Assembly: GCF_055900595.2 (NCBI RefSeq)
Contig: NZ_CM148325.1
DNA: 64,000 nt
Reading direction: 5' to 3' (one strand)
This document shows, in pieces, positions 24,625 to 24,719 of this stretch. The notes under the pieces were generated by a model, which made no database searches, was not told the origin of the DNA, and was given only the letters and a program-made list of their open reading frames with translations. The position numbers and the translations under genes were made by a program. Numbering within the stretch: the stretch's first letter is position 1; each line of letters begins with the position of its first letter.

Positions 24625-24693
24625 AGATGTTGTTCTGCCAATGTTATGCCGCTACACCCTCAACTTACGTTATCCCAACTTGTGACTGTTATT

Positions 24694-24719
24694 CGGCGCT
24701 CTATGGAGCGCCTTTTTTT
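24694..24719 (+). terminator. Rho-independent terminator after malG (overlaps the psiE stop codon)
   Basis: Stem ggcgctc / gagcgcc with a 4-nt loop, followed by ttttttt. Confidence 0.75.

What the first reader, a model, noticed from the sequence alone, without database searches (positions are those of the whole stretch)
24625..24717. No xylE between malG and psiE (only ~90 bp of intergenic DNA with a single terminator)
In the K-12 gene order as I remember it (psiE-xylE-malG), the D-xylose/proton symporter gene xylE separates malG from psiE. Here malG ends at 24624 and the convergent psiE ends at 24718, with just one hairpin terminator between them. Either this lineage never acquired xylE or it has been cleanly deleted, which would leave xylFGH-type transport as the only high-affinity xylose uptake route.
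Basis: partly seen in the sequence, partly recalled or inferred. Interest (0 to 1): 0.4.

Follow-up and report, generated by a model that had tools for sequence, protein, structure and literature searches.

The report
Common xylE-less malG–psiE junction
This strain lacks the xylE xylose transporter gene between malG and psiE, as one third of sequenced E. coli and most related enteric bacteria do, and the short gap left there is the known small regulatory RNA MalH, so the finding is ordinary.

Summary
malG ends at 24624, the convergent psiE ends at 24718, and the 93 bp between them hold one strong terminator. K-12 does have xylE between these genes.

It is not unusual. The same xylE-less junction occurs in 1786 of 5426 complete E. 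coli genomes. The other 3638–3639 carry one xylE copy, and no divergent copy turned up in any E. coli genome. The empty layout is also found in E. albertii, E. whittamii, two other Escherichia lineages and most Enterobacteriaceae genera sampled.

In K-12, xylE is a 1795-bp cassette (promoter, gene, own terminator). It sits exactly between the malG terminator T-tract and the psiE stop codon. The window holds no remnant of it.

The 93 bp are not inert. They are the body of MalH, the characterised sRNA from the malG 3′ UTR (window 24617–24719, 100 of 103 nt identical to K-12).

An inherited empty site is favoured (about 0.65–0.7). An old clean loss is not excluded, because xylE occupies the same site in some Salmonella, Citrobacter and K. 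oxytoca, with divergence like that of the flanking genes.

XylE is the low-affinity transporter. The nearest complete genome keeps xylAB, xylFGH and xylR.

Verdict: already known; low interest.

The parts
23734..24624 (+). malG, the last gene of malEFG (maltose ABC transporter permease)
   Evidence: 296-aa ORF. NCBIfam MalG equivalog NF008231, 609.9 bits against a cut-off of 261. Annotated malG in the near-identical genome NZ_CP098223.1.
24617..24719 (+). Homologue of the MalH sRNA. It derives from the malG 3' UTR and comprises the last 8 nt of the malG CDS, the whole 93-bp spacer and the terminator T-tract.
   Evidence: K-12 annotates ncRNA malH (b4807) at the equivalent position. The alignment shows 3 substitutions in 103 nt against K-12, and a conserved core extends to Citrobacter and Enterobacter. 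[quoted passage not shown] The predicted fold ends in the terminator hairpin.
24695..24719 (+). Intrinsic terminator of malEFG and MalH: hairpin GGCGCTC-TATG-GAGCGCC (24695-24712) plus T7 (24713-24719)
   Evidence: Terminator scan. The stem is invariant in Escherichia, Citrobacter and Enterobacter. Klebsiella, Mangrovibacter and Shimwellia have a different but still self-complementary G+C-rich stem (GGCGGCC...GGCCGCC type).
24719..24720 (.). The empty xylE site. In K-12, the 1795-bp xylE cassette (promoter, CDS, own terminator) lies at this point, between the T-tract and the psiE stop codon.
   Evidence: Side-by-side junction sequences. Homology between the window and xylE-positive genomes stops at about 24719 (query position 720). 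No cassette remnant is present in the window.
24718..25128 (-). psiE (phosphate-starvation-inducible inner-membrane protein), convergent with malG
   Evidence: 136-aa product from ATG at 25128; the mechanical ORF list extends it to an upstream TTG. NCBIfam PsiE equivalog NF002767, 288.5 bits against a cut-off of 222. Annotated psiE in NZ_CP098223.1.

Best explanation
The window carries the 'empty' allele of the malG-psiE junction, which is the base state of this locus in Enterobacteriaceae. The malEFG operon ends in a 3' UTR that is processed into the MalH sRNA. Its terminator U-tract runs directly into the stop codon of the convergent psiE.

xylE is an accessory 1.8-kb cassette with its own promoter and terminator. 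Where it is present, it sits exactly between that U-tract and the psiE stop.

The window's lineage is a deep-branching 'E. coli', about 95.5-96% identical to mainstream strains. It most likely inherited the empty site from the Escherichia ancestor and never carried xylE (inferred; about 0.65-0.7). In that reading, xylE entered, or was retained, only on the branch leading to the E. coli lineages that have it, which include K-12 (phylogroup A), O104:H4 (B1) and O157:H7 (E).

The functional consequence is inferred from the nearest complete genome. Xylose catabolism and the high-affinity ABC transporter XylFGH are kept, and only the low-affinity proton symporter is missing. MalH and both flanking genes are intact.
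For: Shown:
- Junction anatomy, and the K-12 comparison that places the cassette between T7 and the psiE stop.
- 1786 of 5426 complete E. coli genomes have the contiguous junction.
- 3639 genomes (megablast) or 3638 (sensitive blastn) have xylE, in one place per genome as a rule (at most two) and always at least 95% identical. Nothing falls in the 65-95% band, so xylE-less genomes do not hide a divergent copy.
- malG and psiE are adjacent, 81-120 bp apart, in E. albertii, E. whittamii, Escherichia sp. E1V33 and MOD1-EC7003, C. koseri, Enterobacter, Leclercia, Trabulsiella, Pluralibacter and others. K. pneumoniae and Raoultella are also adjacent, with a spacer of about 190 bp.
- The Escherichia empty spacers match only the MalH part of the K-12 region, with no trace of the xylE promoter or 3' end.
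- C. braakii shows what a real xylE deletion leaves: a 382-bp spacer with promoter, internal and 3'-end fragments.
- In a 2.2-kb flank comparison, the window, MOD1-EC7003, E1V33, E. whittamii and E. albertii all lie outside the E. coli strains compared, which are 98-99% identical to each other. All of these outside lineages lack xylE.
- Inside E. coli, the empty allele occurs with arpA-/yjaA+, arpA-/yjaA- and arpA+/yjaA- marker combinations.
- The same site holds other cargo elsewhere, including REP arrays, PTS cassettes and a LysR+HAD pair, so it is a general insertion point.
- A published reconstruction also scores xylE as a gain within E. coli (PMC6896753).
- MalH is expressed from the malG-psiE spacer in xylE-less K. 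pneumoniae (PMC11347178).
- NZ_CP098223.1, which is 99.9-99.98% identical to the window over the three aligned blocks, has intact xylAB, xylFGH and xylR.
Against: - xylE sits at exactly this site in some Salmonella enterica, the C. freundii complex, C. sedlakii and K. oxytoca.
- Its nucleotide divergence from E. coli xylE (81-85%) matches that of malG (81-84%). No closer donor was found among the homologues listed.
- This fits a cassette as old as the genera themselves. The Escherichia ancestor could therefore have had xylE, or been polymorphic for it.
- In K-12 the cassette is flanked by T7 and T5 runs. These could mediate a scar-free deletion. Homologous recombination with an empty allele would also erase xylE cleanly.
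- K-12 flanks show no foreign tract next to the cassette: MalH is identical to ST131, and psiE is 98.5% identical.
- E. fergusonii was not sampled.
- Phylogroups were inferred only from arpA and yjaA in 7 sampled genomes.
Confidence: 0.68

Rival explanations
1. Secondary clean loss. The Escherichia ancestor, or an ancestor of this lineage, carried the xylE cassette at this site. The cassette was then removed without a scar. This could happen by illegitimate recombination between the T-runs of the two terminators that flank it. It could also happen by homologous recombination in malG and psiE with an empty allele from a relative.
For: The cassette lies at the same site, with flank-like divergence, in Salmonella, Citrobacter, K. 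oxytoca and E. coli. That implies an old resident that has been lost many times. Loss does happen: C. braakii holds a remnant. Clean empties occur beside close xylE-positive relatives: Citrobacter sp. FP75 is 97% identical to C. werkmanii over the spacer, and K. michiganensis and K. grimontii sit beside K. oxytoca. K-12 has T7 and T5 runs at the cassette borders. No donor closer than about 85% nt identity was found for E. coli xylE.
Against: It needs many independent losses in Escherichia, or many spreads of one loss: E. albertii, E. whittamii and E1V33, MOD1-EC7003, the window lineage, and several marker types within E. coli. All would have to end at the same nucleotide, with no remnant. The one documented deletion is messy. 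The empty layout also dominates the family in genera with no sign of ever having xylE there.
Confidence: 0.28
2. xylE is not missing but has moved elsewhere in this genome, next to a rearrangement.
For: Only 64 kb of this genome could be read directly, so the rest was not inspected.
Against: Across 5426 complete genomes, xylE is found in one place per genome as a rule (at most two). The counts are complementary: 3638-3639 genomes have xylE, 1786 have the contiguous junction, and 5425 have the malG region. Sensitive blastn finds no xylE-like DNA at 65-95% identity in any E. coli genome. The window is colinear with NZ_CP098223.1 apart from one IS insertion.
Confidence: 0.02
3. Assembly artefact: xylE was collapsed out of the sequence.
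For: None.
Against: NZ_CP098223.1 matches the 1.4-kb query across the junction at 100% identity, and the same junction architecture occurs in 1786 complete genomes and in other species. There are no repeats at the junction that could cause a collapse.
Confidence: 0.01

Closest known systems
MalH sRNA of E. coli K-12 (malH, b4807; Iosub et al., RNA Biol 2021, PMC8081044)
   Same: It has the same position: the last 8 nt of malG, the stop codon, the 3' UTR and the Rho-independent terminator. It is 100 of 103 nt identical. The terminator stem is the same, and the internal core is conserved in other enterobacteria.
   Different: In K-12, the xylE promoter region follows the MalH terminator. Here the stop codon of the convergent psiE overlaps the last two T of the terminator tract. 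There are three substitutions: one in the body, and two at the top of the terminator stem and in its loop. Expression and processing were not tested in this lineage.
xylE presence/absence polymorphism of E. coli (xylE scored as gained within the EB1A lineage; Gonzalez-Alba et al., BMC Genomics 2019, PMC6896753)
   Same: The window carries the xylE-less state that the paper treats as the older condition. My counts give 33% of complete genomes without xylE.
   Different: The paper assigns the gain to the A/B1 sublineage. Here O157:H7 genomes (phylogroup E) also carry xylE at 99% identity to K-12, so the gain or retention would be on a deeper branch. The paper does not describe the junction, the MalH overlap, or the same-site cassette in Salmonella, Citrobacter and K. 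oxytoca.
K. pneumoniae SGH10 'malG.psiE.IGR' = MalH orthologue (RIL-seq, PMC11347178)
   Same: The layout is the same xylE-less malG-psiE arrangement, with an sRNA expressed from the spacer.
   Different: The Klebsiella spacer is about 190 bp and only partly similar in sequence. Its terminator stem is a different G+C-rich hairpin.
K-12 xylE cassette (D-xylose:H+ symporter, MFS sugar porter)
   Same: It defines the site. The flanks are homologous right up to the T-tract on one side and the psiE stop on the other.
   Different: It is absent here: no coding potential and no remnant.

Membership tests
MalH (3'UTR-derived Hfq-binding sRNA of malEFG) | [quoted passage not shown] | tested here: met
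   Window 24617-24719 corresponds to K-12 b4807. The terminator is at 24695-24719.
MalH (3'UTR-derived Hfq-binding sRNA of malEFG) | Sequence homology to K-12 MalH, including the conserved internal region used for base-pairing | tested here: met
   The alignment shows 3 differences in 103 nt. The blocks ATGCC.CT.C-ACCCTCAAC and CCCAAC.TGTGACTGT are conserved out to Citrobacter and Enterobacter. The exact seed coordinates of the paper (its Fig. 1C) could not be read, so seed identity is inferred from the near-identity of the whole RNA.
MalH (3'UTR-derived Hfq-binding sRNA of malEFG) | Released from the malEFG mRNA by RNase E, binds Hfq, and regulates ompC, ompA and MicA | not testable with these tools
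   This needs RNA data from this lineage. It has been shown for K-12 (PMC8081044), and a MalH orthologue was detected by RIL-seq in K. pneumoniae (PMC11347178).
XylE D-xylose:H+ symporter gene | An MFS sugar-porter ORF of about 491 aa between malG and psiE, or elsewhere in the window | tested here: not met
   tblastn with K-12 XylE finds nothing in the window at E <= 1e-3. blastn with the 1795-bp cassette finds only a 33-nt chance match.
Intrinsic (Rho-independent) terminator | G+C-rich hairpin followed directly by a U-tract, downstream of a gene | tested here: met
   7-bp stem with 6 G-C pairs, a 4-nt loop and T7. The hairpin is kept across genera, with a different but still self-complementary stem in Klebsiella, Mangrovibacter and Shimwellia.
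MalG / PsiE (identity of the flanking genes) | Score above the curated cut-off of the NCBIfam equivalog model over the full length | tested here: met
   MalG scores 609.9 bits against 261. PsiE scores 288.5 bits against 222.

The most novel reading that the evidence does not exclude
Two readings are not excluded.

(a) The nucleotide just after the MalH terminator U-tract may be a family-wide hotspot. Small sugar-uptake cassettes would be gained and lost there without scars. Candidates are xylE in E. coli, Salmonella, Citrobacter and K. oxytoca, and PTS cassettes elsewhere. This would keep a long-lived presence/absence polymorphism that recombination in the conserved malG and psiE flanks moves between lineages.

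(b) In the empty allele, psiE has no terminator of its own on its strand. Phosphate-starvation-induced psiE transcription could therefore read antisense through MalH and into malG. That would couple Pho regulation to maltose and porin control in xylE-less strains.

Neither reading was tested.
Probability: 0.12. Interest if true: 0.35.

Novelty: already known. Interest (0 to 1): 0.1.

Why it matters
It matters little. xylE is a known variable gene of E. coli, and its absence here is the commoner state across Escherichia species and the enterobacterial family. Three points are useful for annotation.

1. The malG-psiE 'intergenic' DNA should be annotated as the MalH sRNA in xylE-less genomes too.
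2. K-12 is the derived, or at least the minority, layout in the family, so it is a poor reference for 'expected' gene order here.
3. xylE-less strains would be expected to rely on XylFGH, plus promiscuous carriers such as AraE, for xylose uptake. This could matter for growth at high xylose concentrations and for strain engineering.

Tried and rejected
- **Rfam:** a scan of 24400-25500 at E <= 1 gave no match in the spacer, only sub-threshold naRNA4/REP-like hits at 25228-25375. The MalH identification rests on the K-12 annotation and the alignment.
- **Joint xylE and arpA status:** a 20.8-kb query was meant to show both markers in 60 sampled genomes. The feature lists were truncated, and REP matches inflated the spans, so it gave only the identity level of about 95.5%.
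- **arpA counts:** the arpA query accidentally included 57 nt of an IS, and many genomes carry a shortened arpA. The counts are therefore only rough.
- **Reference phylogroup D strain:** fetching UMN026 by accession failed because it is not in the collection.
- **Donor search:** the XylE homologue search and the cluster listing found no donor closer than the Citrobacter, Salmonella and Klebsiella copies. E. fergusonii did not appear among the 15 members listed, of 6296 in the cluster.
- **Composition:** xylE is 49.7% GC and 54% GC3, against 63-65% GC3 for its flanks. This is within the normal E. coli range and does not settle the question.
- **Rejected:** relocation of xylE and assembly artefact, for the reasons given under the rival explanations.

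Full report
**Observation.**
The window has malG at 23734-24624 (+) and psiE at 24718-25128 (-). Both score far above the curated cut-offs of their NCBIfam equivalog models. The 93 bp between them (24625-24717) hold one terminator-like site. It is a 7-bp stem (6 G-C pairs) at 24695-24712, followed by seven T at 24713-24719. The window has no XylE-like coding potential and no remnant of the K-12 xylE region.

**What the 93 bp are.**
K-12 annotates an sRNA gene, malH (b4807). It starts 8 nt inside the malG coding sequence and ends with the terminator T-tract. MalH has been characterised as a 104-nt sRNA cut from the malEFG mRNA. [quoted passage not shown] It also lowers MicA levels (directly or indirectly), which is proposed to raise LamB (PMC8081044). 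The window equivalent is 24617-24719. It differs from K-12 MalH at 3 of 103 positions: one in the body, and two at the top of the terminator stem and in its loop. The internal blocks are conserved out to Citrobacter and Enterobacter. So the gap is fully occupied by a known functional RNA. Rfam gave no match in the spacer.

**Anatomy of the difference from K-12.**
Homology between the window and K-12 runs through MalH to the end of the T7 tract and resumes at the psiE stop codon. In between, K-12 has 1795 bp. These are a 276-bp A+T-rich promoter region (34% GC), the 1476-bp xylE gene, and its own terminator hairpin followed by T5. The cassette is thus bracketed by the T-runs of two terminators.

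**How common the empty junction is.**
- Of 5426 complete E. coli genomes, 1786 have malG and psiE contiguous as in the window.
- 3639 genomes carry the K-12 cassette, in one place per genome as a rule (at most two).
- A sensitive blastn with the xylE gene finds it in 3638 genomes. Every copy is at least 95% identical, and nothing falls between 65% and 95%.
- The two classes add up to 5424-5425 of the 5425 genomes that have the malG region. xylE-less genomes therefore do not keep a copy elsewhere.

I examined seven xylE-less genomes, taken at even steps down the ranking.
- Three lack arpA and have yjaA.
- One lacks arpA; yjaA was not in the stretch examined.
- One lacks both arpA and yjaA.
- Two have arpA.

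By the logic of Clermont typing (established knowledge), these correspond to B2-like, F/G-like and D-like backgrounds. xylE-positive genomes include K-12 (A), O104:H4 (B1) and O157:H7 (E). A published reconstruction already lists xylE among sugar-uptake genes gained inside the EB1A lineage (PMC6896753).

**The window's lineage.**
Over 20.8 kb the window is only about 95.5-96% identical to the mainstream E. coli genomes sampled across the ranking. The nearest complete genomes are Z0117EC0005 (from a dog) and E200086. Z0117EC0005 is 99.9-99.98% identical over the three aligned blocks. The window carries arpA and yjaA.

In a 2.2-kb malF-malG-psiE comparison, K-12, ST131 and an O158:H23 strain are 98-99% identical to each other. 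Their identities to the outside lineages are:

| Lineage | Identity to these three strains |
|---|---|
| Escherichia sp. MOD1-EC7003 | 97% |
| window | 96% |
| Escherichia sp. E1V33 | 94% |
| E. whittamii | 93% |
| E. albertii | 93% |

All of these outside lineages have the empty junction.

**Other Enterobacteriaceae.**
A scan of one genome per species with PsiE returned 80 loci. In most of them, malG and psiE are directly adjacent with an 81-120 bp spacer that is MalH-like and ends in hairpin, T-tract, psiE stop. These include Enterobacter, Leclercia, Lelliottia, Trabulsiella, Pluralibacter, Citrobacter koseri and some Kluyvera. K. pneumoniae and Raoultella are also adjacent, with a spacer of about 190 bp. 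In K. pneumoniae this spacer was identified experimentally as the MalH orthologue (PMC11347178).

xylE lies between the two genes in the C. freundii complex, C. sedlakii and K. oxytoca. It does so also in some Salmonella enterica (CP022117). The cassette boundaries are the same, and the promoter regions are homologous.

The same point holds other cargo in other taxa:
- REP arrays.
- A cassette with a PTS IIBC transporter, a NagB-like deaminase and a MalI-like regulator.
- A cellobiose-type PTS transporter with an oxidoreductase and a GntR regulator.
- A LysR regulator with a HAD phosphatase.

So this is a general insertion point between two convergent genes.

**Gain or loss.**
Two lines of evidence pull in opposite directions.

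*For an inherited empty site:*
- Every non-coli Escherichia lineage sampled, the window's lineage, and several marker types within E. coli share exactly the same junction, with no xylE debris.
- The one clear case of xylE decay, C. braakii, left a 382-bp spacer with promoter, internal and 3'-terminal fragments.
- One gain or retention on the branch leading to the xylE-positive E. coli lineages explains the Escherichia pattern. Loss would need many independent events with identical end-points.

*For an older cassette with repeated loss:*
- E. coli xylE is 81-85% identical in nucleotides to the Salmonella, Citrobacter and K. oxytoca copies. This is the same as malG (81-84%), and the xylE distance matrix mirrors that of the flanks.
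- No closer donor was seen.
- K-12 flanks show no foreign tract.
- Clean empties sit next to close xylE-positive relatives in Citrobacter and Klebsiella.
- The T-runs in K-12, or recombination with an empty allele, could remove the cassette without a scar.

I put the inherited-empty reading at about 0.65-0.7 and an old clean loss at about 0.3. Either way, the state in the window is the common one.

**Function.**
XylE is the low-affinity xylose:H+ symporter (Km 63-169 uM). XylFGH is the high-affinity ABC system (Km 0.2-4 uM). AraE, GalP and others can also carry xylose (PMC10989795). The nearest complete genome has xylB, xylA, xylF, xylG, xylH and xylR annotated as intact. The strain is therefore expected to grow on xylose and lacks only the proton-driven low-affinity route (inference).

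**Verdict.**
But it is the ordinary, already described xylE-less allele, and the spacer is the known MalH sRNA. Novelty: already known. Interest: low.

Noticed in passing
window 44998-46326 (target duplication TACATCGCG at 44989-44997 and 46327-46335): A 1329-bp IS10-like element sits in the 3' end of arpA. It has a 402-aa IS4-family transposase ORF at 45105-46313 and a 9-bp target duplication. The arpA ORF now ends at 45045, giving 725 aa instead of 728. The element is absent from the near-identical genome Z0117EC0005, and E200086 also stops matching at this point.
   Followed up: partly
whole window, e.g. 24300-45100: The genome is a deep-branching lineage filed as E. coli. It is about 95.5-96% identical to the A, B1, E and B2 strains sampled over 20.8 kb, whereas the mainstream strains compared are 98-99% identical to each other at this locus. 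It has arpA and yjaA, which would fit cryptic clade I or a similar lineage. Only 18 of 5440 records are at least 99% identical at the malG-psiE region.
   Followed up: partly
window 25228-25375: A cluster of REP-like palindromic repeats lies between psiE and yjbT. Rfam gives sub-threshold naRNA4 hits on both strands. RefSeq annotates a 144-nt 'hypothetical protein' inside it in Z0117EC0005. The stretch varies between strains: about 108 nt of it find no match in ST131.
   Followed up: no
loci L043 8412-13143, L041 4525-9431, L061 8412-10185, L039 spacer, L025 spacer: The point just after the MalH terminator is an insertion hotspot across Enterobacteriaceae. Citrobacter sp. 18056 has a PTS IIBC, NagB-like and MalI-like cassette. 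C. sedlakii has a cellobiose-type PTS, an oxidoreductase and a GntR regulator next to xylE. One unnamed Enterobacteriaceae species has a LysR and HAD phosphatase pair. Several genera have REP arrays. C. braakii has a decayed xylE remnant.
   Followed up: partly
window about 33800-35000 (pepE to rluF), compared with L086, L087 and L091-L096: All seven mainstream xylE-less E. coli examined carry a roughly 6-kb L-sorbose PTS operon between pepE and rluF. The window has pepE and rluF adjacent, so it lacks both xylE and sor. EC17GD31 also has phage tail and baseplate genes (apparently a prophage) inserted near yjbD.
   Followed up: no
window 14969-16549 (-): An intact 526-aa SopA-family (HECT-type E3 ligase effector-like) gene lies between malM and ubiC (1033 bits against a cut-off of 326). 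From memory, K-12 has only the yjbI pseudogene at this position.
   Followed up: no
L097 (Salmonella enterica CP022117) 4658-6521: Some Salmonella enterica carry xylE between malG and psiE. The protein is 92% identical to E. coli XylE and the gene is 81% identical in nucleotides. A different Salmonella XylE-like protein, only 81% identical in amino acids, also exists.
   Followed up: partly
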